From assembly GCA_903859375.1 (NCBI GenBank), contig CAIOMK010000059.1, positions 3,438 through 67,437 on the forward strand: a stretch of DNA of 64,000 nucleotides, read 5' to 3'. This stretch comes from Candidatus Moraniibacteriota bacterium. GTDB lineage: Bacteria; Patescibacteriota; Minisyncoccia; Moranbacterales; UBA1568. Position numbers and translations under genes: made by a program. The notes under the pieces were generated by a model that was not told where the DNA came from, did not search any database, and saw nothing but the letters and a program-made list of their open reading frames with translations. The stretch's first letter is position 1; each line of letters starts with the position of its first letter. Shown here piece by piece: positions 14,956 through 39,165 of the stretch.

Positions 14956-16719
14956 TCATCTGTTCAAAATATTGTCGACATCTTCTTCGAGGCTGGTTGA
15001 TTTAGTTTGGAAACTTACAGGGTGAATACTGAACGGATTTACTCTGACAGCCGGCGTGGTGGTAGCGGGCTTCACAGTCTCCTGAACCAGCACGGGCTGG
15101 AAGGATGGGATCGACGGCACGAGCGGGGCTGGTGTCCCTGAAACATCGGCAATGACGGTCGGCACGGTTTTCGCGACGGGAGGAACCGAAACAGCCGGCG
15201 TGGCGGGCGCGACAGATGCAGGAGTATGAGCTTCGGGCTGTTTTCGACTGACACCGAACGCACTCAATCCGGATGGAAGGGACACAACTTCGTCTTTATG
15301 GATGGAAAAATCTCCCTGACCGTGAGTTTCAAATGGAAGGGAATGGCTTGAGGAAATAGTTATACTACCACCGGCCGACTGTATCGGCGTATCTGCGATT
15401 TCATCATGCCCGGCGGAAGAAAATGTTTCATTTTTTCCGTAAACAGATGGCGCCACATCGGGAGATTCTGCCTTTTGTGCCTTCTCGACAGTACGGGAAG
15501 AGAAACTTATCGAAGCGGTATTATCGATTCCTTTCACTGCACTTCCTTCGACACGAAGACTTTCGACTGGGAGGTTCGAAGGCGGTACGGGTTTGAACGA
15601 TACAGGTTGTCGGAGCGGCGCCTGCGGAGGTACTGCCGGCGTGACCGGAGCCGGTGATTGTGGCCATGCCGGAGCGGATACCGGAGCCGGTGCCGGTGCC
15701 GGTGTCGGTGTCGGTGTCGGAGCTGGTGCGGACGATATCGGCGTTGCAACTGAAACGGGCTTCACTGAGACCGGAGCAACAAACGGCCTGGCAGCGACAG
15801 CTTTCACAGAAGCAGGATTGGACACGTTGGGTGTCGGTGCCGGAGAGGTGACCGATCTCTCATAAAATCCGGTGGCAGGAAGAGGCGCGGTTTGAAACGG
15901 AGCCGTCACCGACACTGGTCGGGCCGAAACGGCATTCGGCGAAACGGGAACAGGCTTCGCTGCGGTCGGCGCGAATGTGGGGAAAACGATTTCGTATTTT
16001 TGTGCGTCGATATCAAGCGCGAAATTCTCCTCGATCGAACGGAGGATGAGATTGACCCGCTCACGTTCTTCCGAAGAAAGACGCTTACCGTTCTCGGAAT
16101 CGAACAGGAACTTGCCACGAATCATCGGCTCATGATAGCCGACACCGAGCTCGTCACGATATACCCGCATCCAGTTCATGAGACTCGGTCGGACAGACTC
16201 GGGCTGATTCCTTACGCGGATACGCTCCTTCGTGATCTGCTGTTCCCCAAGCCTCGGATACTTCCCCAGTGCCTGCACAATCGCAAGATGTTCCAGATTT
16301 GCATCGGTAGGATCGACATCGGCTTTCGGTCGCACAGAAAGTATTTTTCGCTGAAAGTCCCCTATCATGCCTTGTACGACTCCGGCCTCACGACCTTTTT
16401 GTGAAAAGAATTGGTAAATATTGTTTCCACATTCCTGAATGGACCATTCATGAAAATAGAATTTTCTGACAGCCTGACTTATGAAGGCGATTTCCCCATC
16501 ACCAAGATGTTGATTCTGTCCGAATGTGTAAATCGCCTCCGGAAGCTCTCTCGCGGTAAGGATATCCCGAATGTCAGTAGAAAGCGAATCATATTTCGCC
16601 CATAAAATACTATCTTCTTCCAAAGTAGTCTTATATTTCCCGTCGCCTTCGGTTATCGAAGCAAACATCGGGAAATAGCACCACTTCTTTTCATATTCTT
16701 TTTTATTTGTTCCATCCAT
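14956..16719 (-). CDS. Hypothetical 587-aa protein: folded ~240-aa N-terminal domain plus ~340-aa Pro/Ala/Val/Ser-rich disordered tail
   Basis: Complete ORF with repetitive PAPTPTPTPAPAPAPVSAP-type sequence. No catalytic motif. Confidence 0.6.
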   Translation of the reverse strand: MDGTNKKEYEKKWCYFPMFASITEGDGKYKTTLEEDSILWAKYDSLSTDIRDILTARELPEAIYTFGQNQHLGDGEIAFISQAVRKFYFHEWSIQECGNNIYQFFSQKGREAGVVQGMIGDFQRKILSVRPKADVDPTDANLEHLAIVQALGKYPRLGEQQITKERIRVRNQPESVRPSLMNWMRVYRDELGVGYHEPMIRGKFLFDSENGKRLSSEERERVNLILRSIEENFALDIDAQKYEIVFPTFAPTAAKPVPVSPNAVSARPVSVTAPFQTAPLPATGFYERSVTSPAPTPNVSNPASVKAVAARPFVAPVSVKPVSVATPISSAPAPTPTPTPAPAPAPVSAPAWPQSPAPVTPAVPPQAPLRQPVSFKPVPPSNLPVESLRVEGSAVKGIDNTASISFSSRTVEKAQKAESPDVAPSVYGKNETFSSAGHDEIADTPIQSAGGSITISSSHSLPFETHGQGDFSIHKDEVVSLPSGLSAFGVSRKQPEAHTPASVAPATPAVSVPPVAKTVPTVIADVSGTPAPLVPSIPSFQPVLVQETVKPATTTPAVRVNPFSIHPVSFQTKSTSLEEDVDNILNR

Positions 16720-20730: not shown

Positions 20731-21714
20731 GTGTATACTAAGGATATGAACGGGATCAAACCGAAACATGAATCAATCGAAACGGACCCGGTCCGTCTTT
20801 TGGCGCGGAAATTCCTCGAACACCTCGAAATCGAACTCAGCCGATCTCCACGAACCATCGACAGTTACGGCCTTTCCCTGAAGAAATTTTTCGTAACGGC
20901 TCATATACGCACACCGGAAGACATCACTCTCGAACGCATCCGTGAGTACCGTCTCCATCTCAACCGAGAGACAACGCCCACCGGCGAACCACTCCGAAAG
21001 ACGACTCAGACCTATCATGTCGTCGTATTGCGTGCATTTCTCAAATATCTCGCCAAAGAGGACATCGTCACCGTGCCTGCGGAGAAAATAGAGGTCGGCA
21101 AGACCCCGACACGTCAGGTCGATTTCCTCGAACTCGAAGAGATCGAGCGGCTTCTCTCGTCCGCATCGGGGGATTCGCTCCGCTCTCTCCGAGACCGCGC
21201 CATCCTCGAGCTCCTGTTCTCGGCCGGACTGCGGGTATCCGAACTCACCTCGCTCGATCGCGACCATGTGAATCTCAATAAGGGCGAATTCAGCATCCGA
21301 GGCAAAGGTGCCAAGCTCCGCATAGTCTTTCTTTCCGACGATGCCGGCGATGCCCTCTTCCGGTACCTCGAAAAACGACGGGATATGGACCCCGCACTCT
21401 TCGTCGCAGTCCCGATCGCAAAAAAAGGCTTCGTCAAAGAGGGGGCTCTCGGGGATATCAGACTCACACAGCGGAGCGTGCAACGGCTGGTCAAGAAATA
21501 CGCAGCCAAGGCCGGCATCGTCAAAGACGTCCATCCGCACACATTGCGCCATTCTTTTGCGACCGACCTCCTCCAAAACGGTGCTGATATCCGATCAGTC
21601 CAAGCCATGCTCGGACACGCATCCATCACGACGACCCAGATATACACCCACGTGACCAATGAACACCTCCGAGAGATCCACGAGGCCTTCCACGCGAAGA
21701 AAAAGAAGAAATAA
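20731..21714 (+). CDS. Tyrosine recombinase, XerC/XerD/phage-integrase family
   Basis: C-terminal catalytic HPHTLRHSFATDLLQNGADIRSVQAMLGHASITTTQIYTHV, and the LRDRAILELLFSAGLRVSEL box. Confidence 0.9.
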   Translation: MYTKDMNGIKPKHESIETDPVRLLARKFLEHLEIELSRSPRTIDSYGLSLKKFFVTAHIRTPEDITLERIREYRLHLNRETTPTGEPLRKTTQTYHVVVLRAFLKYLAKEDIVTVPAEKIEVGKTPTRQVDFLELEEIERLLSSASGDSLRSLRDRAILELLFSAGLRVSELTSLDRDHVNLNKGEFSIRGKGAKLRIVFLSDDAGDALFRYLEKRRDMDPALFVAVPIAKKGFVKEGALGDIRLTQRSVQRLVKKYAAKAGIVKDVHPHTLRHSFATDLLQNGADIRSVQAMLGHASITTTQIYTHVTNEHLREIHEAFHAKKKKK

Positions 21715-30438: not shown

Positions 30439-30876
30439 ATGAACTCGCTTCAACCATATTTCGTCATCCTGGTCCCGATCGCGGTCGGCGTCATAACCCA
30501 GGCCCTCAAATTCATCATCTTTACGGTGAAGCACGGCTGGAAGCCGGAATACATGCTCACACACGGTCATATGCCGTCGGCGCACACCGCGTTCGCCATC
30601 TCACTCGCCGTCAGCGTCGGATGGTACGAGGGGGTCGGTTCCGGATCGTTCGCCGTAGCCGCAGCGCTCGCCTTCATCCTCGTGGACGACGCCGCCCGTA
30701 TCCGTATGTACCTGGGTGATCAGGGCCGCTACCTCAATATGCTCGTCGAACAGCTCGACGTCGATGGGAGCAAGTTTCCCCGTCTCAAGGAACGCGTAGG
30801 GCATCGCGTCAGTGAGGTCATCGTCGGCGGACTCATCGGCCTGTTCGCCACCCTCCTCATAGTCACGACCATATAG
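30439..30876 (+). CDS. DUF212 / divergent PAP2-like membrane protein. Start at internal ATG 30439.
   Basis: HMPSAHTAF motif (DUF212 signature) and 3-4 TM helices. Confidence 0.6.
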   Translation: MNSLQPYFVILVPIAVGVITQALKFIIFTVKHGWKPEYMLTHGHMPSAHTAFAISLAVSVGWYEGVGSGSFAVAAALAFILVDDAARIRMYLGDQGRYLNMLVEQLDVDGSKFPRLKERVGHRVSEVIVGGLIGLFATLLIVTTI

Positions 30877-30898
30877 CCATTCGTACCGAAACAAAAAA

Positions 30899-30932
30899 CG
30901 GACTCCTCACAGGGTCCGTTTTTCATCGGCAA
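30899..30932. terminator. Bidirectional terminator AAAAACGGACTCCTCACAGGGTCCGTTTTT
   Basis: Perfect hairpin flanked by A5 and T5. The same sequence family occurs at 38130-38164. Confidence 0.65.
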
Positions 30933-30989
30933 TTTTCCAAGGTATGAAAATAGCGTAAGAAAGATTTCTCTCTTACGCTCAAACTGCGA

Positions 30990-31442
30990 CTAATACCGAA
31001 ACGAATCCGGAATCGGCGGAGGAGTATTCTCCTCGACGACAAAGTCGTTAAGCTCGATAATCCTGAGCCCGACCTCCTCCCATGCCCCCTCGAACCCAAG
31101 GAACTTCGCATACCGTCCATATAGGGCCGGCTCTTTCTCTCTCCTCTCGCCAGAGAAGAACCAATCGTCGATGCAAGCGGTTCCTCCCTTACGAAAGTAG
31201 GCCGCCAGCATGAGATGGTCATGCGAGTCTGCAAAAGGATCGAGACACATATGGATCTCCATCAGATTGCCCTGATTCACCACGTTTCGACCGTCCCGAT
31301 GGAGTGTGAACGAACCGGCTCTTATGGCATTGCTCGTAAGCACCGTCTCCCACGCCTCGACCACAGTACGTTCCTGCTGATAATTGAACGCGCGCTGGGC
31401 TTCTGCCGCTTCGATGAATTCCTGTAAAGGCTTGCTAATCAT
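30990..31442 (-). CDS. Hypothetical 150-aa cytoplasmic protein (cassette gene A)
   Basis: RBS AAGGGAG 8 nt before ATG. Directly preceded by the two-hairpin repeat element. Confidence 0.6.
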   Translation of the reverse strand: MISKPLQEFIEAAEAQRAFNYQQERTVVEAWETVLTSNAIRAGSFTLHRDGRNVVNQGNLMEIHMCLDPFADSHDHLMLAAYFRKGGTACIDDWFFSGERREKEPALYGRYAKFLGFEGAWEEVGLRIIELNDFVVEENTPPPIPDSFRY

Positions 31443-31571
31443 GGCTCGTCTCCCTTGTATTTAATTGTGAAATGAACTGTTTCCATCTTCAGAAGTACGT
31501 ACGAGACATACCGCTGAAGATGGAGCCGACAAGAATTATTCACGTCGGCACTCCGTAAAGGTTTTTTCGAG
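31443..31571 (-). repeat. Copy A of the conserved intergenic module: leader CAGTTCATTTCACAATTAAATACAAGGGAG, hairpin 2 (CCATCTTCAG...CTGAAGATGG), hairpin 1 (GCCGAC...GTCGGC), then AGGTTTTTTCGAGG
   Basis: Near-identical copies at 32507-32636 and 33009-33113. Divergent copy with compensatory changes at 34731-34794. Confidence 0.85.
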
Positions 31572-31663
31572 GCCATCAAATCGTCGATCTCCTTCGGGAA
31601 GATCTCCTTCTTTTCCCTCTCGAAAGGGTTCTTGCGCCAACGGGTGAAGTATTCCCGTCCGAC

Positions 31664-32506
31664 CTACTCCCACTTGACGCGGAAGGTATTGGTCTCCTGC
31701 CAACCCTGTCCCTTGTTACCTACCTCGAAGGCAAATTCAAGGAAGTCCGGGCCGCGATCGGTGATCGCCGTGCTCAGCACCCGCATCCCCACGGAGTAAA
31801 ATTTCCCTCCGGGGTGGCGGAGACCGGTCCAGGACGATCCTGTGGAACAGAACCCTTTGCCTTTTACCCAGACAAAGAGTTTGTACTGATCCACGATAGC
31901 GTCGTAATCCCGGTCGTAATGAACGGCAAGCAGCGCGACGACGTCACTCTCCACGACGGTCTCGGAGTCCTTCGACCACCGATTTCCGAGGCTTTTCTCG
32001 ACATACGAACGGAACGCCTTGATGTCATCAACGACATCACTGAGCAATTTCATTCGCGCCTGAGTCGCCTCATAATCGCGGACGGAGAATACCGACAGGG
32101 TTTCGAGACCCTTCTCCGAGCTGAAGCGGTACGCCTTCACGTTGCCCCCGCCAGTGCGAAGACCGAACGTGACCGCAACCTCCGTCTCCTCGAGAATCGA
32201 GGGTGAACTGAGGCAAAGGTCCCAGTTGTCGATCTCGTGGCTGTACGCTCCGCGGTACTGTCGCATCGGACCCTCGTGTACCCGAGTCCACACATCACCG
32301 TCGCGTTTCTCAACGCAAAGAGCGTGCGAGTATGCCATGCCACCGCCGGACTTCGACACATTCTCACCGCCAATGACGATTCGGAACTGCTCTCCTTCCG
32401 GAACACGCGTTTCCGTATCGAGGTAGCGCTGTACGAGCGCTGGAACCATTGAAAGGTTCTCGCGCGTGGCAAGCGTAGCGGCGGTCTGTAGGCTGACTTC
32501 TTTCAT
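31664..32506 (-). CDS. Hypothetical 280-aa protein (cassette gene B). Start at internal Met MKEVSL; the ORF-track N-terminus METVHFTIQ is repeat-element sequence.
   Basis: RBS CAGGAG before ATG at 32506. Stop immediately followed by the conserved GGACGGG-N9-CCCGTTGGC hairpin (31632-31663). Confidence 0.6.
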   Translation of the reverse strand: MKEVSLQTAATLATRENLSMVPALVQRYLDTETRVPEGEQFRIVIGGENVSKSGGGMAYSHALCVEKRDGDVWTRVHEGPMRQYRGAYSHEIDNWDLCLSSPSILEETEVAVTFGLRTGGGNVKAYRFSSEKGLETLSVFSVRDYEATQARMKLLSDVVDDIKAFRSYVEKSLGNRWSKDSETVVESDVVALLAVHYDRDYDAIVDQYKLFVWVKGKGFCSTGSSWTGLRHPGGKFYSVGMRVLSTAITDRGPDFLEFAFEVGNKGQGWQETNTFRVKWE

Positions 32507-32636
32507 TTTTGTTTCTCCTGTTTGAATTGTGAAATGAACTGTTTCCATCTTCAGGAGTACGTACGAGACATACCGCTGAAGAGAGGGCCGACGGAATTAT
32601 TCACGTCGGCCACCAATCAGGTTTTTTCGAGATCCC
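32507..32636 (-). repeat. Copy B of the two-hairpin intergenic module
   Basis: See copy A. Fills the entire 130-nt spacer between the gene C stop and the gene B start. Confidence 0.85.
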
Positions 32637-33008
32637 TCAACTCGGCCCCTGGTTATTGAACGGGCCCGGAAAATTCCGCCACTCCCGCCTCGGCCAGACC
32701 ATCCAAAGGAAGATCCCTATCATTCCTATGGAGCCTTTACACCAGATCTCCAGCCAGAGAGGCGCCCCCTCTAGATAGGTCGGGTTGGCGATGACAAGAA
32801 TGCCGGCCCAGCACACGAGGCTGGTCATCGCGAACCAGAGGAACCCCATCATCCCCCAGTACCGCAAGAGGACGACGTCCTCACCATTCGCAATGCGCGC
32901 CCGGACAAGCTGGCGCGTTCTAACCGCCACTTTTCCAAACATCATCGCAGCCATAACCATCATGGTTGCTAGAACAGCAACGTCCTGACTAACTGTATTC
33001 ATATTCAT
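32637..33008 (-). CDS. Small (124 aa) membrane protein with 3 TM (cassette gene C). Start at MNMNTVSQ; the upstream in-frame MNNSCRLHLQRYV...METVHFTIQ is repeat-derived.
   Basis: RBS CAGGAG. Hydrophobic segments VAVLATMMVMAAMMF, GMMGFLWFAMTSLVCWAGILVI and IGMIGIFLWMVW. Confidence 0.5.
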   Translation of the reverse strand: MNMNTVSQDVAVLATMMVMAAMMFGKVAVRTRQLVRARIANGEDVVLLRYWGMMGFLWFAMTSLVCWAGILVIANPTYLEGAPLWLEIWCKGSIGMIGIFLWMVWPRREWRNFPGPFNNQGPS

Positions 33009-33113
33009 GTGTATATCTCCTGTTTGAATTGTGAAATGAACTGTTTCCATCTTCAGAAGTACGTCCAAGACATACCGCTGAAGATGGAGCCGACAAGAAT
33101 TATTCAAGTCGGC
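33009..33113 (-). repeat. Copy C of the two-hairpin intergenic module
   Basis: See copy A. The hairpin-2 loop differs slightly (GTCCAAG vs GTACGAG). Confidence 0.85.
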
Positions 33114-33818
33114 TCAAATTTTAACCAATAACAGGGACCGCATAGTTCACGCTACGGTCTACGATGTGCCAGGAGTCGCAACGTATAGTTGCATCTCCAG
33201 ACATATCGCCTTGCTCTGTTATCGGTGTTGGTATCCGGCCGGCATATGAAGAAATGTCGTTGACACTCCTTCATAAGATCCTTAGCCGAGATGCCCTGTG
33301 ATGGGAGAACTCAATCTCCGTATTCGTAGCGGGGCTTGCTCGGAAGACGTCTAGCGTGGACGCTCCACTGTTCGTCGAGACATGAACAAAAATTCATATC
33401 TCAAACGACCACCTCCTACCTACGAACCATCACCTCCTCTAGCAACGAGGCCTGTTCTCTTTGCTTCATTTCCCCTTTCGACTCAACAGAGAGAGAAAGG
33501 GTCTTCTGTTCCTGGCGGGTGAAGCGTCCCCGCCATGGGTATCCGTCTTTATGAGTCGCGCCATTGCGACCGACGGTTTGCCCATAGAATCCATAATGGA
33601 TTCTCCTCTGACTATCAAATTATCGCGCCATGCCGATGAGACAGGTGCAAATGAGTGAGTCCTCATCGCGGCTCAAGAGTACGCGTGTACCATGAGCATG
33701 ATAGCCTTCTGATTGCTACTGTTAACGGCGCACCAGGTTTCCCTGTTCAGAACGCGAATTTTTCAATTCACAGCCTGAATGAGGAGGAGAAGATACTGCG
33801 TTGATATATCTTCTCCGA

Positions 33819-34022
33819 TTACGGGGAGCACTGCCGTATATGTCTGTTATGCTCCTTCAACATCCGCGCCCACTCCTTCATGGACGGGGCCGTACGAAGA
33901 CGGGCTTCGAACATCCGCTCCGCATGAGACGCACGATGAGGACTCCTCTTCGGCGCCTTCTTGCCCCCGTTGGCCAAAATGGCAATCTGAAGCAATGTCG
34001 TCGGTCTTGCTATGTGTTTCAT
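33819..34022 (-). CDS. Hypothetical 67-aa basic protein
   Basis: ATG preceded by AAACAGGAGAAAA, the same leader/RBS context as cassette genes B and D. Conserved stop-adjacent hairpin module lies upstream at 34106-34135. Confidence 0.3.
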   Translation of the reverse strand: MKHIARPTTLLQIAILANGGKKAPKRSPHRASHAERMFEARLRTAPSMKEWARMLKEHNRHIRQCSP

Positions 34023-34171
34023 TTTTCTCCTGTTTATTTTTTGGAAAATTTGTGTGTTCGATCCGTTCGGTCGGATCTCCTTCTGTTTCCTCTTCCGGGG
34101 ATTCTGTTGCCAACGGGAGAAGTGGTCCCGTCCGAGTCTCGCTCATCGCCCTCCGCGGACGGAACAGGAGA

Positions 34172-34527
34172 TTACTTCTCCCGTTCTTTCTGGAGTCGCC
34201 GATAGTCAGCTACCGCCTCTTTGACGGCATCACTGAGTTTCGCGGCTTCCCCATGCCCATGGACTCCCCTGTCTCCGATATAGTCGACACGATATGGAAT
34301 TCTCCCGATATGGTCAGTTACCCTGACTTTCTGGAGGTTCATCCCAAGAGTGTCGACTCCCGCGAAATTCGCAGGATTATTCATCGGAAAGAAGTTGACT
34401 GCCTCATCGGTCCAGCGCAGGACCGAATCAACATCTACTTTCTTCTGCCACAGGACTGTGGCTCCGACGGACAAAATCGCGGTGACGATGACGGAAAGAA
34501 CGATACCTTTTGTATTTTCGATATACA
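34172..34527 (-). CDS. Hypothetical 118-aa N-terminally membrane-anchored protein (cassette gene D). Start at internal Met MYIENTKG.
   Basis: Strong RBS AACAGGAGATAAAC-ATG. TM GIVLSVIVTAILSVGATVLW. The leader shares AGTTCATTACACAAATTAAAACAGGAG with copies A-C. Confidence 0.55.
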
Positions 34528-34730
34528 TGTTTATCTCCTGTTTTAATTTGTGTAATGAACTCACTCTGTAACGGGATAGTATACCCTCTTTTGACCCTGC
34601 TGTCCATAGTATCGATACGTTTTGTAAATATTTATACAACATATTGACTTATTTTAGCCAATATTTGCTGTCGTAAAATACTTTACAAATATATGATATT
34701 CTTGGGTCATATCAGATATATTTCTCAATC

Positions 34731-34794
34731 CCATCTTCAAAGGCACGTAAAGTACCTGTCCTTGAAGATGGAGCCGATAGAATTTTCATATCGG
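34731..34794 (-). repeat. Copy E of the two-hairpin element (CCATCTTCAAAGG...CCTTGAAGATGG plus GCCGAT...ATCGGC). It is separated from gene D by a ~180-nt AT-rich insertion.
   Basis: Stem positions changed in a pairing-preserving way relative to copies A-C (CAG/CTG to CAAAGG/CCTTG; GCCGAC/GTCGGC to GCCGAT/ATCGGC). Confidence 0.75.
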
Positions 34795-34910
34795 CGTGTC
34801 TTGAGGTTTGTCCGAGCCCTCAACTCGTCGATCCGCTTCGGCCGGACCTCCTTCGTTTACTCCTTCCGGAGCTTCTGTTGCCAACGGGTGAAGTAGGCCC
34901 GTCCGGAGTA

Positions 34911-35312
34911 TCACCACGATGAGATTTCTCGAAGTTGCCCAGTATCATAGAGGACGGCTTGACCCCGAAAACGGGTCCAGCAATCGACTTCAACGGTGAC
35001 AATGCCTTCGTGATCGACCATAAACAGGCCGATTTCACAGTCGCACGTACCGTCGTCGTCATCGTCGTCCTCAACAATAATAGAGCACCAATCAAGCTCA
35101 TCCTCTCCAACCCTGCTTACGAGAAACGCGATGATTTTCATCTCATCCGGATCTCGTACGAGAAAGGCGCAAAGCCCTTCGCGGTCCTCTGAAAAAACCA
35201 GAGAACTTGCATGGAGTGTGGCGCCATCCGGCATCGTCTCTCCCATCACAAGCATCACAAGCTTAGAGAGAAATAATGCGCGTTCTTCCCCGACAAGAGC
35301 TTCCATTGCCAT
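34911..35312 (-). CDS. Hypothetical 133-aa acidic protein with a poly-Asp tract (cassette gene E)
   Basis: Strong RBS AGGAGGAAAC-ATG. Stop followed directly by the GGACGGG-N9-CCCGTTGGCAACAGAA hairpin module (34873-34908). Confidence 0.55.
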   Translation of the reverse strand: MAMEALVGEERALFLSKLVMLVMGETMPDGATLHASSLVFSEDREGLCAFLVRDPDEMKIIAFLVSRVGEDELDWCSIIVEDDDDDDGTCDCEIGLFMVDHEGIVTVEVDCWTRFRGQAVLYDTGQLREISSW

Positions 35313-35457
35313 GTTTCCTCCTATTTGAGGGTTGAAAAGAAAAATATTTCTTTGTATCCCGCTCCCCCGCCTGCCTCAACGGGGTCCCTTCGGGAAGGGG
35401 AGCTGTCGAGTCTTCGAGACTCTTGATCCGCGAATGCTGGGTGAGGGGTGGGAGACA

Positions 35458-35628
35458 TCAGGATCCGGCAAGCCGTTTCCTGAGCTCGGCTTTGGACCGT
35501 TTCCGGTCGTAGCCCTTTCCTCCACTCTTCGTAGAATGGGCTCCGCCCTTGTGCCGAAGAAGTTCGACAACCTCCATCGGGATGCGCCACTTCGACGGCT
35601 TCCTGACCTTTTTTATAGTCTTCGCCAT
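35458..35628 (-). CDS. Small (56 aa) highly basic protein MAKTIKKVRKPSKWRIPMEVVELLRHKGGAHSTKSGGKGYDRKRSKAELRKRLAGS
   Basis: AAGGAGG 7 nt upstream of ATG. Hairpins plus T-run terminator downstream. The longer ORF 35458..35748 is rejected. Confidence 0.5.
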   Translation of the reverse strand: MAKTIKKVRKPSKWRIPMEVVELLRHKGGAHSTKSGGKGYDRKRSKAELRKRLAGS

Positions 35629-36071
35629 CTCTACCTCCTTTTTTGTTCTTCGATTGTAAAAGTTCATCACCGGACATCGGCATTCCTTCGGGAACCATGT
35701 GCCAGAAGGCTTCATGGGGGGTATGAATATTTTGAATATTACCCCCATCCGCCAAGGCGCATGGCTCTACCAAGTGACCGACCAATCCTGCCATTCATAT
35801 CAATTCCGTCTGACAGGAGGCGTATAACCCAGTTATCCGAGAGAATACCTATCTTTTGAGGTGCCGGATTCATCAAGCTTTTCAACTTGACTCCACAGTA
35901 TATCGTATGATTCAAATCTTGTCAAGTGTTACTGACTAAATATGTGAGTATATAGTAAATAATGCTTTTGTGAAGCAATATTTTGTATATAATTATGTTC
36001 ATTATTGTTGTCATACAATGGACAATACTACGCCTAAAGAAGCCTTCGAACTGTATTCTGTTTATGACGCT

Positions 36072-36100
36072 TGACAGAACTGTTTTCCGGTGCTACTATA
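36072..36100 (+). promoter_or_regulatory. Consensus sigma70 promoter TTGACA-N17-TACTAT
   Basis: -35 at 36072-36077 and -10 at 36095-36100 within an AT-rich 35.9-36.1 kb region. Confidence 0.55.
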
Positions 36101-36107
36101 CGGGGTA

Positions 36108-36351
36108 ACGTAATTTCAGTTTTTTCACAATTAACCAAGGGAGGAAGTCATGGGGGACTATTGATACGCTCCAAGAAGATGAGCGGCACACAGAAGTGCG
36201 CTCATCTCCAAGAAGGGACCACATCAATTAATCTTCATGAAAGAACCCTCAATCTCCAATAACATCAAAAAAACGACCATGTCTGACTAGTAGAAAAAAT
36301 CATTCGACTGTCTCGTGAAAAACTCACGAATTGATGGTCTCAAAGAAGCGG
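36108..36351 (+). ncRNA. Candidate ~300-nt promoter-to-terminator transcript without a credible ORF (only a 4-codon MGDY and a 17-codon ORF). sRNA or leader-peptide RNA candidate.
   Basis: Begins with leader CAGTTTTTTCACAATTAACCAAGGGAGGAAGTC-ATG, which resembles the cassette-gene leaders. Internal hairpin GATGAGCGGCACACAGAAGTGCGCTCATC. Ends at a strong bidirectional terminator. Confidence 0.3.
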
Positions 36352-36415
36352 AATCGAAAAAAGGGCCCCGGAACAATATACTTTATGTATATCCGGAGGC
36401 CCTTCTTTTTATTTC
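36352..36415. terminator. Bidirectional terminator (GGGCCCCGGA...TCCGGAGGCCC with T-runs on both sides)
   Basis: A6 upstream and TTCTTTTTATTT downstream. Serves the plus-strand transcript and the convergent TrmB gene. Confidence 0.6.
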
Positions 36416-36418
36416 AAT

Positions 36419-37183
36419 CTATTCCTGATATTTTTCCGCTCCCTCCCATGCCAGATCAAGGATTGCCCGCACAGAATCCGCGATTTCCTTATCTTCAATG
36501 ATGATACCGAGTAATCGGTCGCCAAGCGAAGCTATCCGAACCTTATCATCGAGAATAGCGATGTCGCTTTTTATCGGAAACTTATCAAATGGTACTTTTC
36601 TTCGCTCGCCATCAACAGTACTCTCCAAAACACCGTTTTTATAGGTATATATCACCCTCGTCTTGATTTTTTTGTCGAGCCTTTTCGTTTTTGCCCGAGC
36701 CCGTTCCTCTTTCATGAAAACATTATCAACCGCATCAACCGAATACGCCATAGGAACGACGCTTCCGGATGCGACCTTTATCGTCTCTTCGTTCATGGCC
36801 GATATACCTTCCTTTCCCTCGAAATACTTCACGACTGGTCGACCGGACTGCTTGTTGTTTATCGATTGAAGTTGCGGGATAAGCTTTTTCAGCTCTTCCG
36901 ATTTCCGCTCCATTTCCCGCTTCTGTTCATCGAGTATTTCGACGAGCCGATCCGGATCGGTCGCGATAAAAAATTGCTTCTTTCCCTGATGGAAACTGCT
37001 GATAAGCCCTTTGGCCGTGAGTCCCTCGATGATAAAATAGGTCGTCGCGCGGTTCACGCCGGACCTGCTCGAGATTCCCTGTACTGCCGACTGCCCCAAC
37101 TCCAAAGAGGCCAGATAGACCTTCGCTTCCTTTTCATTGAGTCCGATTTCCACCAGTTCCCGTTCGAACATACCGGTTTGCAT
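36419..37183 (-). CDS. TrmB-family transcriptional regulator (254 aa)
   Basis: N-terminal HTH LNEKEAKVYLASLELGQSAVQGISSRSGVNRATTYFIIEGL, TrmB-type. Confidence 0.7.
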   Translation of the reverse strand: MQTGMFERELVEIGLNEKEAKVYLASLELGQSAVQGISSRSGVNRATTYFIIEGLTAKGLISSFHQGKKQFFIATDPDRLVEILDEQKREMERKSEELKKLIPQLQSINNKQSGRPVVKYFEGKEGISAMNEETIKVASGSVVPMAYSVDAVDNVFMKEERARAKTKRLDKKIKTRVIYTYKNGVLESTVDGERRKVPFDKFPIKSDIAILDDKVRIASLGDRLLGIIIEDKEIADSVRAILDLAWEGAEKYQE

Positions 37184-37353
37184 TATTTCGATTGTACGCC
37201 ATTATACCACGGATACAGACCGCATTTCCACGTTCCGCTGTCGAAAGGGCCGATACATCGGGAAAGAATCGACAGATGGACGCCCTGTGCAAAAACAAAT
37301 TCCAGCACCCTTTCGGCATTTTACGGATGTCGTATTTTTTGTCATGATACACC

Positions 37354-38113
37354 TATGATCGAAGAAAAGCTTCAACAACTCGGCTTACGTGAAAATGAGA
37401 CACTCGTGTACTTATGCGTTCTTGAGAATGCGGAAATCGCACCTTCGGAAGTGGCCAAGAAAACCAATCTCAGCCGGCCGACAGTCTATGCCATCGGCAA
37501 GGAGCTTGTGAAGAAAGGCTTGATACTCGAGGAAGACCGCTCCTCGGGGCTCCGATTCCTTGCCACACCACCCGAAACCATTCTCCGCGAAGTCGAAGCC
37601 TCGAAGCGTGAAGCCGAGGCACGGCTCGTCCTCGCAAAATCACTGGTGCCCGAGCTGTCCCTTCTGCCGAAATCGCAGAGCTATTCGGTTCCGAAAGTCC
37701 GCTTCATCGAGGAATCGCAGATGCTGGAGTATATATACAAGAAATCCGATGACTGGGACAAAAGCGCCCTCGGTCGGGATGCGACCTGGTGGGGCGTGCA
37801 GGACAGTTCCCTGGTCAGACAACTCAACGAATGGCTCACATGGTATTGGAAGCGCTCCGACCCGATGATCCAGACGAAAATCATAACGAATGAGAAGGAA
37901 GAAGGTCATTCGTTCGAGGGTCAGGCCAATTTCCGCCGGCAGATGAAATACTGGAACATGGGAGGCAATATCCGGACGACCCAACTGGTCTTCGGTGACT
38001 ACATCCTCATCGTGAATACGCATACCACACCGCACTCCCTCTTTGAGATTCATGACGCCGTCACCGCCGAAGGCCTTCGTCAGGTCTTTCGCGGGATCTG
38101 GGAAACGCTGTAG
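37354..38113 (+). CDS. TrmB-family transcriptional regulator (253 aa), divergent paralogue. The ORF-track start at 36866 is rejected.
   Basis: HTH LRENETLVYLCVLENAEIAPSEVAKKTNLSRPTVYAIGKEL. The upstream part of the long ORF is antisense to the other TrmB gene. Confidence 0.7.
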
Positions 38114-38129
38114 CCACCCGTGCGGGAAC

Positions 38130-38164
38130 AAAAAACGGACCCTCATGAGGGGAGTCCGTTTTTC
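38130..38164. terminator. Bidirectional terminator AAAAACGGACCCTCATGAGGGGAGTCCGTTTTT
   Basis: Hairpin CGGACCCTC/GAGGGGAGTCCG with A5/T5 flanks. Same family as 30899-30932. Confidence 0.6.
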
Positions 38165-38526
38165 GGTTGGAGAATGAACTTATAACAGTCCCATATTCCC
38201 GAACAAAGTGAGGGTGATGACCGGCATCAGGGCCAGAAGAAAAGCGAACGCCATTTCTTCCTGCTCCTGGGCCCGACTGCACCGCTCGCACGGCTGTGAC
38301 CCCGTGGCCTCACTGTGCACGTCACTCGAGGTGACCATAGAGTTTGTACTCATATGTTTGTGTTACGGTTTACTCTTTTGTAGCTCTTCAAAAAGAAAAA
38401 CGGATTCCCTGACAAGAGGGCACCCGTTTCCACTACAAACCTAGTATACACCTTTTATAGGTCCGAGTCAAATGGTGTGGTGGGAATAATCTTTCCCGCC
38501 ACACCATGATTTCATCGGAGCGCTCA

Positions 38527-39165
38527 TCATATGGACCGTTCCGACACTTTGACATTACAGAGCGGGAGAAGTTTCATCGCCACTTCTCTCCAATTCCCTT
38601 CGAAATGAACAGTGCCGTCCTTGACCATCGCGATGTTTTCATCCAGGAAGATGGCGATAGCCGAGCATTCCGATTCCCATGTGGAGCCGTTCCGAAATTG
38701 GATACCGAACGCTCCGAGTGGCAATCCGCTTATCAGCGATGAAAAGCTGACATGTTTCAGGAGATATTCGCCCCATGCGGCAGCCGTTCTCGGAAGAGCG
38801 AACAGTCCGGACAAAAACGGCGGGAGTTCCGAGCCGTCATAGACCAGTATGTTCACCGACGGATGCACGGTTCCGGAGATATATTCGAGTATGCCCTTGT
38901 ACCGGGTCTCAGCCTTGCGAAGGTCGAAGAACAGCATCCGTCCATGGGAAGAGAGTTCCTCATAGGTGAACGGTGAGACATCAAACCCTTTCTGCCTGTA
39001 AAAGTCGCGTATCACATTCGTGATGTCCTTCAGTGAGATGCGGAGATCATCGGTACAGGCAAATTGAAGGCTGAGAGTTTCCCAGTATGGAACTTCCAGA
39101 TAATGTAACTTCGAACGCAGGACCGAAGACAGCCCGTCGGCATCCAATACCATTTTTTTCGCCAT
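38527..39165 (-). CDS. Hypothetical 212-aa protein. Start at internal Met MAKKMVLD after AGGAGCTCAC.
   Basis: RBS-supported start. The upstream 44 codons of the ORF-track model lack an RBS. Confidence 0.55.
   Translation of the reverse strand: MAKKMVLDADGLSSVLRSKLHYLEVPYWETLSLQFACTDDLRISLKDITNVIRDFYRQKGFDVSPFTYEELSSHGRMLFFDLRKAETRYKGILEYISGTVHPSVNILVYDGSELPPFLSGLFALPRTAAAWGEYLLKHVSFSSLISGLPLGAFGIQFRNGSTWESECSAIAIFLDENIAMVKDGTVHFEGNWREVAMKLLPLCNVKVSERSI

What the first reader, a model, noticed from the sequence alone, without database searches (positions are those of the whole stretch)
31443..34794. Repeated two-hairpin RNA-like element with compensatory base changes upstream of cassette genes
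Four copies of an ~70-nt element are present, at 31482-31548, 32545-32610, 33046-33113 and 34731-34794. Each has two adjacent stem-loops, read on the minus strand as GCCGAC-N13-GTCGGC followed by CCATCTTCAG-N20-CTGAAGATGG.

In copies A-C the element abuts a conserved leader (AACAGTTCATTTCACAATT(C/A)AA..AGGAG) and the start codon of a minus-strand gene. Copy E is separated from its gene by a ~180-nt AT-rich insertion.

Copy E keeps both helices despite multiple substitutions: GCCGAT/ATCGGC and CATCTTCAAAGG/CCTTGAAGATG. That is covariation that preserves pairing, which argues for selection on RNA or DNA secondary structure rather than on coding sequence.

The frames in which the element is open differ between copies. 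The ORF-track N-termini METVHFTIQ and MNNSCRLHLQRYV are element-derived artefacts.

Candidate functions:
- A cis-regulatory 5'-UTR structure such as a riboregulator, RNase or sRNA target.
- A processing site in a polycistronic transcript.
- A recombination (cassette attachment-like) site.
Basis: seen in the sequence. Interest (0 to 1): 0.8.

Follow-up and report, generated by a model that had tools for sequence, protein, structure and literature searches.

The report
Structured RNA spacers between cassette genes
Four copies of a two-hairpin element sit a fixed distance ahead of small unknown genes in one operon of a Moraniibacteriota (candidate phyla radiation) bacterium; related genomes carry the same element, keep its folding through compensating mutations and have the genes in shuffled order, so it is most likely an undescribed RNA module that separates and standardises genes in a variable array.

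Summary
Four copies lie on the minus strand at 31480-31552, 32542-32613, 33044-33116 and 34728-34798; none is expected by chance.

A second repeated three-hairpin module (M1) follows the stop codons.

The window is a Moraniibacteriota chromosome. The same elements occur in at least 8 related genomes at the same locus, downstream of a TrmB-family regulator. Across 36 copies, 96.9% of cells pair and 14 of 25 pairs show compensatory changes. A sister lineage keeps the architecture with a different sequence.

- The hairpin-to-ATG distance is 34-41 nt in 31 of 31 gene-preceding copies.
- No internal promoter or terminator lies at the elements. There is one promoter-like site upstream of the array and one terminator after it.
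- There is no integron integrase, no attC signature and no dispersal, and no match in Rfam, phage or plasmid collections.
- Gene order differs between genomes.

Best reading: cis-acting intercistronic RNA modules in a polycistronic mRNA. The likely mechanism, inferred and untested, is cleavage of the roughly 19-20 bp helix by a double-strand RNase, with the flanking hairpins protecting the new ends. The repeats probably also supply homology for cassette shuffling.

The parts
31480..31552 (-). M2 copy A. Hairpin H1 is at 31525-31549 and hairpin H2 at 31483-31523. It lies 40 nt upstream of the ATG of gene X6.
   Evidence: Covariance-model hit of 89.7 bits. Predicted fold -37.7 kcal/mol, z -6.99.
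32542..32613 (-). M2 copy B. H1 is at 32586-32611 and H2 at 32545-32585. The base of H2 is weakened by two unpaired changes. It lies upstream of gene X5.
   Evidence: Covariance-model hit of 79.1 bits. Fold.
33044..33116 (-). M2 copy C. H1 is at 33088-33114 and H2 at 33047-33087. It lies upstream of gene X4.
   Evidence: Covariance-model hit of 96.6 bits. Predicted fold -40.3 kcal/mol.
34728..34798 (-). M2 copy E, a diverged subtype at the first junction of the array. H1 reads GCCGAT/ATCGGC and the upper stem of H2 has a different sequence. The same subtype occupies the first junction in L002, L009, L019 and L023.
   Evidence: Covariance-model hit of 67 bits. Its nearest relative is L023 10443-10513.
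31443..31482 (-). Fixed-length A/U-rich leader with Shine-Dalgarno sequence, behind copy A. The equivalent leaders are 32507-32544 for copy B and 33009-33046 for copy C.
   Evidence: The distance from the end of H2 to the ATG is 34-41 nt in 31 of 31 gene-preceding copies.
31563..31661 (-). M1 module, placed right after the stop codon of X5. It has three hairpins (P1-P3) and a conserved GAAGGAGAUC tract.
   Evidence: Repeat family D2. Alignment A5, with 96.8% of cells paired and covariation in P2 and P3.
34036..34134 (-). M1 module after gene X2. There is no M2 at this junction.
34807..34905 (-). M1 module after gene X1, directly upstream of M2 copy E.
34564..34727 (-). AT-rich insertion between copy E and its leader. 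It carries a promoter-like site, TGGACA-17-TATACT, at 34606-34578.
35897..35925 (-). Promoter-like site TTGACA-17-TATACT (11 of 12 matches), upstream of the small basic-protein gene and the array.
30952..30979 (-). Canonical terminator-like hairpin (12 bp stem followed by a T-rich tail), directly after the last cassette gene X6.
30990..35312 (-). The cassette array:
- X1, 34911-35312
- X2, 34172-34528
- X3, 33819-34022
- 42-aa ORF, 33466-33594
- X4, 32637-33008
- X5, 31664-32506
- X6, 30990-31442

None of these has a Pfam or NCBIfam match.
35458..35628 (-). Conserved basic protein of about 56 aa at the head of the operon. It is present in the related loci. Function unknown.
36419..37183 (-). 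TrmB-family regulator that marks the conserved locus upstream of the array in all genomes examined.

Best explanation
The element (M2) is a cis-acting structured RNA module carried in the polycistronic mRNA of a variable small-gene operon of Moraniibacteriota (candidate phyla radiation).

**Structure and position.** Each M2 consists of a GC-rich hairpin H1 stacked directly against a helix H2 of about 19-20 bp. A fixed leader of 34-41 nt follows, holding the Shine-Dalgarno sequence and the start codon. A second three-hairpin module (M1) follows many of the stop codons.

**Proposed mechanism.**
1. The array is transcribed from the promoter-like sites at about 35925 and 34606 through to the terminator at 30979-30952.
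2. H2, which is about two helical turns long in every subfamily, is cut by a double-strand-specific endoribonuclease. RNase III is the obvious candidate.
3. H1, together with M1, then caps the 3' end of the upstream cistron. The purine-rich 3' arm of H2 plus the standard leader forms a uniform, protected 5' end for the downstream cistron.
4. Each unrelated cassette gene is therefore expressed independently of its neighbours.

**Second role.** As repeats of 70-170 nt in direct orientation, the modules also provide homology for recombination that reshuffles, adds and removes cassettes.

**What is shown and what is inferred.**
- Shown: the conserved structure, its strand, its position and spacing, the lack of promoter and terminator signals at the elements, and the shuffled gene order between genomes.
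- Inferred: cleavage, end protection, insulation, and recombination through the repeats.
For: **Structure**
- RNAalifold gives two adjacent helices.
- Across 36 sense copies from 8 genomes, 96.9% of cells pair. The figure is 33-48% when partners are slid by 1-3 columns.
- 14 of 25 pairs have changes on both sides, and 0 of 500 shuffles reach the observed values.
- Ten sequence-divergent variants all fold to the same H1|H2 architecture with an H2 of 18-22 bp. They include the C2 form CCGGTATCGA../..TCGATACCGG and the GGCAAG/CTTGCC subfamily of L024 and L027.

**Strand**
- G.U cells number 87 against 13 A.C cells. Two G.U columns are nearly invariant.
- The sense strand folds 5-7 kcal/mol better than the antisense strand.
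- Every copy is in the sense orientation of the downstream gene.

**Position**
- The distance from H2 to the ATG is 34-41 nt in 31 of 31 copies, although leader sequences differ.
- M1 starts 0-40 nt after stop codons and is itself structured.

**Operon logic**
- Promoter-like sites lie only upstream of the array, in the AT-rich insertion, and after X3.
- The only canonical terminator follows the last gene. H2 has no U-tract.

**Selection**
- The hairpins are about 80% identical between orthologous cassettes, against 78% for the coding sequences and 73% for the leaders.

**Shuffling**
- About 15 gene families recur in different orders in 8 genomes, each preceded by an M2.
- Homology breakpoints fall at the edge of H1 and within the leader.
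Against: - There are no transcript data, so cleavage and end protection are untested.
- The presence of an RNase III gene in this genome was not checked.
- The alignment used for the pair counts was fitted to the model, which inflates the percentage paired.
- The G.U excess rests largely on two conserved columns. Without them the count is 26 against 13.
- G.T pairs are also tolerated in single-stranded DNA hairpins.
- Strong sequence conservation of H2 within the main subfamily suggests a sequence-specific partner rather than a generic double-strand RNase.
- The fixed spacing to the start codon would also fit a translational operator.
- The array is identical in 24 contigs of this species, so shuffling is slow.
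- Copies within a genome are barely more alike than copies between genomes (0.767 against 0.748), so there is little sign of ongoing gene conversion.
Confidence: 0.5

Rival explanations
1. Translational or mRNA-level operator. H1/H2 is the binding site of a dedicated RNA-binding protein, for example the conserved basic protein of about 56 aa encoded at the head of every array. That protein would co-regulate all cassettes without any cleavage.
For: - H2 is strongly conserved in sequence and has invariant G.U pairs within the main subfamily.
- The spacing to the ribosome-binding site is fixed.
- A small, very basic protein is conserved at the start of the operon in the related loci.
Against: - The small protein has no recognisable RNA-binding domain and no homolog in Pfam, NCBIfam or the PDB.
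- The hairpin ends 23-30 nt before the Shine-Dalgarno sequence, too far for simple occlusion.
- The sister subfamily has a quite different sequence.
Confidence: 0.15
2. A terminator-plus-promoter regulatory cassette, like the PeSLs of T4-type phages. H2 would terminate the upstream gene, and a weak promoter in the leader (the conserved TTnACAAY motif) would restart transcription.
For: - The arrangement resembles PeSL-flanked ORFans in hyperplastic regions, where recombination between repeats shuffles genes (PMC2839356, PMC4122927).
- Some copies have T-rich tracts a few bases after H2.
- The leader holds a conserved A/T-rich motif.
Against: - No -35/-10 pair reaching 9 of 12 matches lies in M2 or its leader. 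The single exception overlaps a start codon.
- This organism's recognisable promoters read TTGACA-17-TATACT and its terminators have U-tracts. H2 has no adjacent U-tract.
- A -10 box at the leader motif would leave a 5' UTR of only about 5 nt before the Shine-Dalgarno sequence.
Confidence: 0.12
3. A DNA-level recombination site. The hairpins would form in single-stranded DNA and be used by a site-specific recombinase to insert and excise cassettes, as in an integron or an attC-like system.
For: - The array consists of promoterless small ORFan genes, all in one orientation, with a structured repeat at each junction. Gene order differs between genomes.
- Strand asymmetry is also a property of attC sites (established knowledge).
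Against: - No integrase lies next to the array in any of about 10 loci.
- The only tyrosine recombinase in the window is 9 kb away and is XerD/XerC-like: 249 bits to XerD, and 123.6 bits to the integron-integrase model against a cut-off of 265.
- There are no RYYYAAC/GTTRRRY core sites, and there are two independent helices rather than one imperfect hairpin.
- The element is tied to the start codon by a fixed distance.
- The array is invariant in 24 contigs of the species.
Confidence: 0.07
4. A selfish or neutral intergenic repeat (REP/BIME-, MITE-, BOX- or Correia-like) that has spread within this region without any specific function.
For: It is a repeated palindromic intergenic sequence with a modular make-up (M1, linkers, M2), which is reminiscent of BOX and BIME mosaics.
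Against: - It is not dispersed. All copies in 64 kb lie in one 4-kb array, and all exact matches in the genome bins are clustered at the same locus.
- It has no terminal inverted repeats or target duplications.
- Its orientation and distance to the start codon are strictly constant.
- Compensatory substitutions are maintained across genomes whose genes are only 62-93% identical.
Confidence: 0.05
5. A double-stranded DNA operator for the neighbouring TrmB-family regulators.
For: Two TrmB-family genes flank the locus in every genome, and the arms are inverted repeats.
Against: - The spacing between the H1 arms varies from 7 to 15 nt, and the loop itself contains covarying pairs.
- The conserved G.U positions make the DNA palindrome consistently imperfect.
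- Mirror-image compensatory changes are not expected for protein half-sites.
Confidence: 0.03

Closest known systems
RNase III processing sites between genes of the phage T7 and T3 early operons, and the SP82 RNase III site with its polypurine 5' stabiliser in Bacillus subtilis (from established knowledge, not re-read here)
   Same: - Repeated hairpins of about two helical turns with an internal loop.
- They lie between cistrons of one transcript and are similar to one another.
- They leave hairpin-protected 3' ends and defined 5' ends.
- A purine-rich tract lies just 3' of the site.
   Different: - There is no sequence similarity.
- This element is a two-hairpin unit with an extra three-hairpin 3' module.
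- It is chromosomal, in a candidate phyla radiation bacterium.
- Cleavage has not been shown.
PeSL (promoter-early stem-loop) cassettes of T4-type phages (PMC2839356, PMC4122927)
   Same: Conserved composite intergenic motifs flank small ORFan genes in a hypervariable region. Recombination between the motifs explains modular shuffling.
   Different: - PeSLs are defined by a strong sigma-70 promoter plus a terminator stem-loop. Neither signal is detectable here.
- This element is in a bacterial chromosome, not a phage.
- No mini-circles are known for it.
Integron cassette arrays with attC sites
   Same: Promoterless small genes of unknown function lie in one orientation, with a structured, strand-asymmetric repeat at each junction.
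   Different: - No IntI integrase.
- No R''/R' core sites.
- Two helices instead of one bulged hairpin.
- The element is anchored to the downstream start codon rather than to the 3' end of the cassette.
Correia/NEMIS elements of Neisseria, and the REP/BIME, BOX and ERIC intergenic repeats (PMC2649163 for Correia elements; the rest from established knowledge)
   Same: Repeated intergenic palindromes that are co-transcribed with genes and can be cut by RNase III or can stabilise mRNA segments. They have a modular composition.
   Different: Those families are dispersed in tens to hundreds of copies, occur in both orientations, and are often bounded by terminal inverted repeats. This element is confined to one operon-like array in a fixed orientation at a fixed distance from start codons.
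STAB-SD, the 5' mRNA stabiliser of Bacillus thuringiensis cryIIIA (from established knowledge)
   Same: A conserved Shine-Dalgarno-like purine tract that is not followed by a start codon. Here these are GAAGGAGAUC in M1 and the purine-rich 3' arm of H2.
   Different: The resemblance is by motif only. No stability data exist for this element.

Membership tests
Integron (attC cassette array) | An integron integrase (IntI) gene adjacent to the array | tested here: not met
   - No Phage_integrase hit among the neighbours in the window or in loci L018-L031.
- The only tyrosine recombinase (20731-21714) scores as XerD/XerC. It reaches 123.6 bits on the IntI model, whose cut-off is 265.
Integron (attC cassette array) | attC architecture: one imperfect hairpin bounded by R'' (RYYYAAC) and R' (GTTRRRY), with extrahelical bases | tested here: not met
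   - Alignments A1 and A4 and the consensus fold show two independent, nearly perfect helices.
- The flanks read ..GCCGAC and GATGGAAACAGTTCATT. GTTCATT does not fit GTTRRRY.
Integron (attC cassette array) | Promoterless, co-oriented cassettes of variable content | tested here: met
PeSL regulatory cassette | A strong sigma-70-type promoter inside the repeat | tested here: not met
   The consensus scan finds promoter-like sites at 35925, 35974, 34606 and 33725, but none in M2 or its leader. The one exception is a 9-of-12 match that overlaps the X5 start codon.
PeSL regulatory cassette | A stem-loop that acts as a transcription terminator | tested here: inconclusive
   A stable hairpin is present, but no U-tract follows it directly. 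Canonical terminators elsewhere in the window do have one. Function is not testable here.
REP/BIME, MITE or Correia-type dispersed repeat | Many dispersed copies in both orientations, with terminal inverted repeats and target duplications for MITEs | tested here: not met
   - Four copies in 64 kb, all in one array and one orientation.
- Exact matches in the genome bins are clustered at the same locus.
- The ends of the element are not inverted repeats.
Intrinsic (Rho-independent) terminator | A GC-rich hairpin immediately followed by a U-tract | tested here: not met
   None of the four copies is reported by the terminator scan. The scan does report the site at 30979-30952, after the array.
RNase III processing site | A helix of about 20 bp (two turns), often with an internal loop, in a transcribed spacer | tested here: met
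   H2 is 10 + 8 bp with a 1x1 loop. Divergent variants have 18-22 bp.
RNase III processing site | Cleavage by RNase III in vivo or in vitro | not testable with these tools
   No transcript or biochemical data are available.
Any Rfam family | A score at or above the family's gathering threshold | tested here: not met
   Only two tRNAs are found in the window at gathering thresholds. In 30800-38600 at E<=1 there are only two eukaryotic chance hits.

The most novel reading that the evidence does not exclude
Moraniibacteriota carry an integrase-free gene-cassette system. Every ORFan gene is packaged with a standard structured 5' module (H1-H2-leader) and often a 3' module (M1). These modules insulate the gene's expression at the RNA level and also serve as the joints at which cassettes are exchanged. 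Functionally this would be an RNA-insulated analogue of an integron. It may include non-coding 'cassettes', namely the C2 units with the alternative H2' hairpin.
Probability: 0.2. Interest if true: 0.8.

Novelty: new variant of a known kind. Interest (0 to 1): 0.62.

Why it matters
Candidate phyla radiation bacteria are mostly uncultured, and almost nothing is known about how they control mRNA. I found no described RNA family that matches this element.

It is a well-supported structured RNA family with clear covariation. It is tied to a hypervariable array of lineage-specific genes at a conserved chromosomal site.

If the processing-and-insulation model holds, this would be a natural counterpart of the synthetic intercistronic insulators used to make gene expression independent of context. 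It would also show how a reduced genome can swap accessory genes without a dedicated recombinase.

The model makes concrete, testable predictions: ends at H2 in metatranscriptomes, and in vitro cleavage by the organism's RNase III.

Tried and rejected
- **Rfam.** Searches at gathering and at permissive thresholds found nothing relevant.
- **Other sequence collections.** An exact-pattern scan of IMG/VR and blastn against the phage and plasmid collections found no match, so there is no evidence of phage or plasmid origin.
- **Chance and unrelated pattern hits.** L001, L006, L010 and L013 are chance matches. The termite-gut loci L008, L011, L012 and L014-L016 hold a different family of long palindromes.
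- **Upstream ORF.** I tested whether the ATG inside H2 starts a conserved upstream ORF. The frame and length vary and stops occur after 2-9 codons in several copies, so this was rejected.
- **Concerted evolution.** Copies within a genome are not clearly more alike than copies between genomes (0.767 against 0.748). Only 7 of 31 have their nearest neighbour in the same genome.
- **'Hairpins far more conserved than genes'.** This impression came from the BLAST segments. Direct comparison of orthologous cassettes gives 80% against 78%, so the claim was toned down.
- **Small basic protein as an ArfA-like factor.** No support from the PDB, Pfam or NCBIfam.
- **Function of the cassette proteins.**
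  - No Pfam or NCBIfam hits.
  - The AlphaFold model of X5 (pLDDT 83, all-beta) has no convincing PDB match; TM-scores are about 0.2.
  - A distant X5 homolog in L032 lies beside a tyrosine recombinase but has no hairpin elements.
- **Generic two-hairpin descriptor scan.** Too noisy to use.

Full report

Yes. Read on the minus strand, 31000-35400 holds four copies of a unit of about 73 nt, at 31480-31552 (A), 32542-32613 (B), 33044-33116 (C) and 34728-34798 (E). The pattern CCATCTTCAG-N21-CTGAAGATGG with up to 3 mismatches occurs four times, against 0.00 expected in shuffles. A covariance model run without filters over the whole window finds only these four sense-strand copies, at 67-97 bits.

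Each copy folds far better than shuffled controls, at -35.8 to -40.3 kcal/mol with z-scores of -4.7 to -7.2.

Two refinements are needed. The 'loop' of the second hairpin is itself paired, so H2 is 10 bp, a 1x1 internal loop, 8 bp and a loop of 3-5 nt. H1 abuts H2 with no spacer.

**2. What surrounds it**

The window is a bacterial chromosome. It encodes IF-2, the CCA-adding enzyme, PolA, PcrA/UvrD, RuvABC, a Mur ligase and FemAB.

The four copies lie between small co-oriented genes with no family assignment: X1 to X6, 30990-35312. A second repeat, M1 (about 100 nt), begins 0-40 nt after the stop codons of X1, X2 and X5, at 34807-34905, 34036-34134 and 31563-31661.

On the minus strand, the sigma-70-like sites that fit this organism's apparent consensus (TTGACA-17-TATACT) lie in four places:
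- upstream of the array, at 35925-35897 and 35974-35947;
- in the AT-rich insertion, at 34606-34578;
- after X3, at 33725-33698.

The only canonical terminator on that strand is at 30979-30952, just after X6. None of the M2 copies or leaders carries a convincing promoter, and none is followed by a U-tract. The array therefore looks like one or two polycistronic units, with M1 and M2 as transcribed spacers.

**3. Relatives elsewhere**

An exact 20-base pattern scan found the element in Candidatus Moraniibacteriota genome bins and in several metagenome contigs. The copies were always clustered 340-1000 bp apart. The remaining hits were chance matches or an unrelated palindrome family.

I used the adjacent TrmB-family regulator as an anchor to fetch orthologous loci. 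The array always lies at the same chromosomal place: downstream of the TrmB gene and a basic protein of about 56 aa, and upstream of a convergent DUF212 gene.

The element is present where the TrmB protein is at least about 68% identical to the window's (L002-L004, L009, L017, L019, L023). It is weak in L021. In more distant relatives (L024, L027) it is replaced by a unit with the same architecture but a different sequence: GGCAAG-loop-CTTGCC directly followed by a 19-20 bp pyrimidine-arm/purine-arm hairpin.

Within this species the array is the same in 24 contigs.

**4. Structure is under selection**

On 36 sense-strand copies aligned to the model (A4):
- 96.9% of cells form standard pairs, against 33-48% when partners are slid by 1-3 columns;
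- 14 of 25 pairs show changes on both sides, in 61 cells;
- no shuffle out of 500 reaches these values.

Specific examples:
- CAG/CTG changes to CGG/CCG in L002 994 and L019 8485.
- CCATC/GATGG changes to CAATC/GATTG in L017 6953.
- The outer H1 pair alternates between G-C and A-U.
- The apical part of H1 switches between GAA/UUC, ACAC/GUGU and CUGG/CCAG.
- A 'C2' variant keeps H1 but has a wholly different H2', CCGGTATCGA../..TCGATACCGG, with the same 10 + 7 bp layout and a U.G pair at the same place.

Ten divergent variants all fold into H1|H2 with an H2 of 18-22 bp. M1 is also structured: 96.8% of cells pair, all four P2 pairs and two P3 pairs covary, and P2 varies in length.

Caveat: A4 was aligned by the model, which favours pairing. 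The MAFFT-only alignment A2 gives the same picture, but its rows were selected by the search pattern.

**5. Which strand, and RNA or DNA?**

All copies are in the sense orientation of the downstream gene. G.U cells outnumber A.C cells by 87 to 13, and two G.U columns are nearly invariant. One variant, L009 3578, has six G.U pairs that would all be A.C mismatches on the other strand. The sense strand folds 5-7 kcal/mol better than the antisense strand.

This favours sense-strand RNA. It does not strictly exclude a single-stranded DNA hairpin.

**6. Position relative to translation**

The distance from the last paired base of H2 to the ATG is 34-41 nt in 31 of 31 gene-preceding copies, and 23-30 nt to the Shine-Dalgarno sequence. 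The leaders themselves are only 73% identical and sometimes cannot be aligned. Window copy E is the single exception, because of its insertion.

Identical leaders occur in front of unrelated genes. GGAGATATACACATG precedes X4 here, the response-regulator-like gene in L004, and the X5 homolog in L023. Conversely, M2 subtypes usually travel with the downstream gene family.

The ATG inside H2 does not head a conserved upstream ORF.

**7. The array is modular**

About 15 gene families recur in eight genomes in different orders and combinations, each preceded by an M2. For example, the response-regulator-like family F4 and the small membrane protein F13 are in opposite order in L004 and L017. The X5 family sits at three different positions.

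Homology between the window and L002 around X5 starts exactly at the first base of H1 and ends about 20 nt into the next leader. Recombination at the repeats is therefore a reasonable inference, but it is slow.

**8. Mechanism**

My best reading has confidence of about 0.5 for the whole model, about 0.7 for 'cis-acting structured RNA in the mRNA', and about 0.4 for cleavage specifically. The model is that M2 and M1 are intercistronic RNA modules.
- H2 keeps a length of about two helical turns in all subfamilies whatever its sequence. That is what a double-strand-specific endonuclease such as RNase III needs.
- After a cut, H1 and the M1 hairpins would protect the 3' end of the upstream cistron.
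- The purine-rich 3' arm of H2 and the fixed leader would give the downstream cistron a uniform 5' end.
- The conserved GAAGGAGAUC in M1 and the purine arm of H2 recall the Shine-Dalgarno-like 5' stabilisers of Gram-positive bacteria (established knowledge).

None of these steps is demonstrated. The rival readings and the evidence for and against each are listed separately.

**9. Comparison with known systems**

In function the element most resembles the RNase III sites between T7 early genes. In evolutionary role it resembles the PeSL cassettes of T4-type phages (PMC2839356, PMC4122927). It is a member of neither:
- no sequence similarity to either;
- no promoter and no U-tract terminator;
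- no phage context.

It is not an integron: no IntI, no attC core sites, and two helices rather than one. It is not a REP-, MITE- or Correia-type dispersed repeat. It matches no Rfam family, and two full-text searches found no description of it.

**10. Verdict**

This is a real, well-supported and apparently undescribed structured RNA family. I found it only in Moraniibacteriota-type loci, where it organises a variable cassette operon. It is a new variant of a known kind of element, namely repeated structured intercistronic spacers. Interest is moderate to high, about 0.6, limited mainly by the absence of any functional data.

Noticed in passing
window 33113-33466 (-); L009 3149-3222 and 4013-4086; L003 6014-6087; L004 3305-3378; L023 11794-11867: A 'C2' variant of the element has H1 plus a different long hairpin H2' (CCGGTATCGA..TCGATACCGG). 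It is followed by 350-500 nt that have stops in all frames but contain further covarying small hairpins, such as CCUCUCG-UUGC-UCGAGAGG. The window keeps only the non-coding stretch. This may be a non-coding 'cassette' or a small RNA.
   Followed up: partly
window 33466-33594 (-): A conserved 42-aa ORF (MDSMGKPSVAMARLIK...) with a good Shine-Dalgarno sequence is 90-92% identical at the protein level in L004 and L023. Its coding sequence contains an M1-P1-like stretch at 33503-33543.
   Followed up: partly
window 34564-34727 (-): An AT-rich insertion splits copy E from its leader and carries a promoter-like site, TGGACA-17-TATACT. Part of it (34566-34623) is 83% identical to L017 5582-5639, which lies outside that genome's array.
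   Followed up: partly
window 38180-38353 (-): A 57-aa peptide gene with a hydrophobic C-terminal tail (..MAFAFLLALMPVITLTLFGNMGLL) is conserved beside the TrmB gene pair in the related loci. It is up to 92% identical in DNA to L009 and is bracketed by terminator-like hairpins.
   Followed up: partly
L024 6139, 10482, 10901, 12946; L027 4859, 7878: A sister subfamily has GGCAAG-loop-CTTGCC abutting a 19-20 bp hairpin, with a pyrimidine-rich 5' arm and a Shine-Dalgarno-like 3' arm (AGAGGGA). In two copies that 3' arm appears to be the Shine-Dalgarno sequence of the next ATG, which hints at translational masking.
   Followed up: partly
L008, L011, L012, L014, L015, L016: These metagenome contigs hold palindromes of about 110 nt that share the core CCCATCTTCAA..TTGAAGATGGG but otherwise have a different, single long-hairpin architecture. 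Whether they are related to the element is unknown.
   Followed up: no
L002 (DATMYW010000003.1): This contig is labelled Candidatus Fimivivens sp. but carries the Moraniibacteriota-type array, with homologs of the window's cassette genes and the flanking sequences. It is probably a mis-binned contig.
   Followed up: no
window 20731-21714 (+): A XerD/XerC-like tyrosine recombinase lies 9 kb from the array. It is not an integron integrase by NCBIfam scores.
   Followed up: yes
window 35458-35628 (-): A very basic 56-aa protein (..KGGAHSTKSGGKGYDRKRSK..) is conserved at the head of the arrays. It has no match in Pfam, NCBIfam or the PDB. A loose resemblance to the ArfA C-terminal motif, recalled from memory, was not supported.
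   Followed up: partly
window 15678-15746 (+): A run of GGTGCC/GGTGTC hexamer repeats lies inside a large ORF region. It is probably a low-complexity coding repeat.
   Followed up: no
L032 4359-6960: A distant homolog of cassette protein X5 (39% identity) in an AT-rich genome sits divergently next to a tyrosine recombinase near dnaA/dnaN. No hairpin elements are present there.
   Followed up: partly
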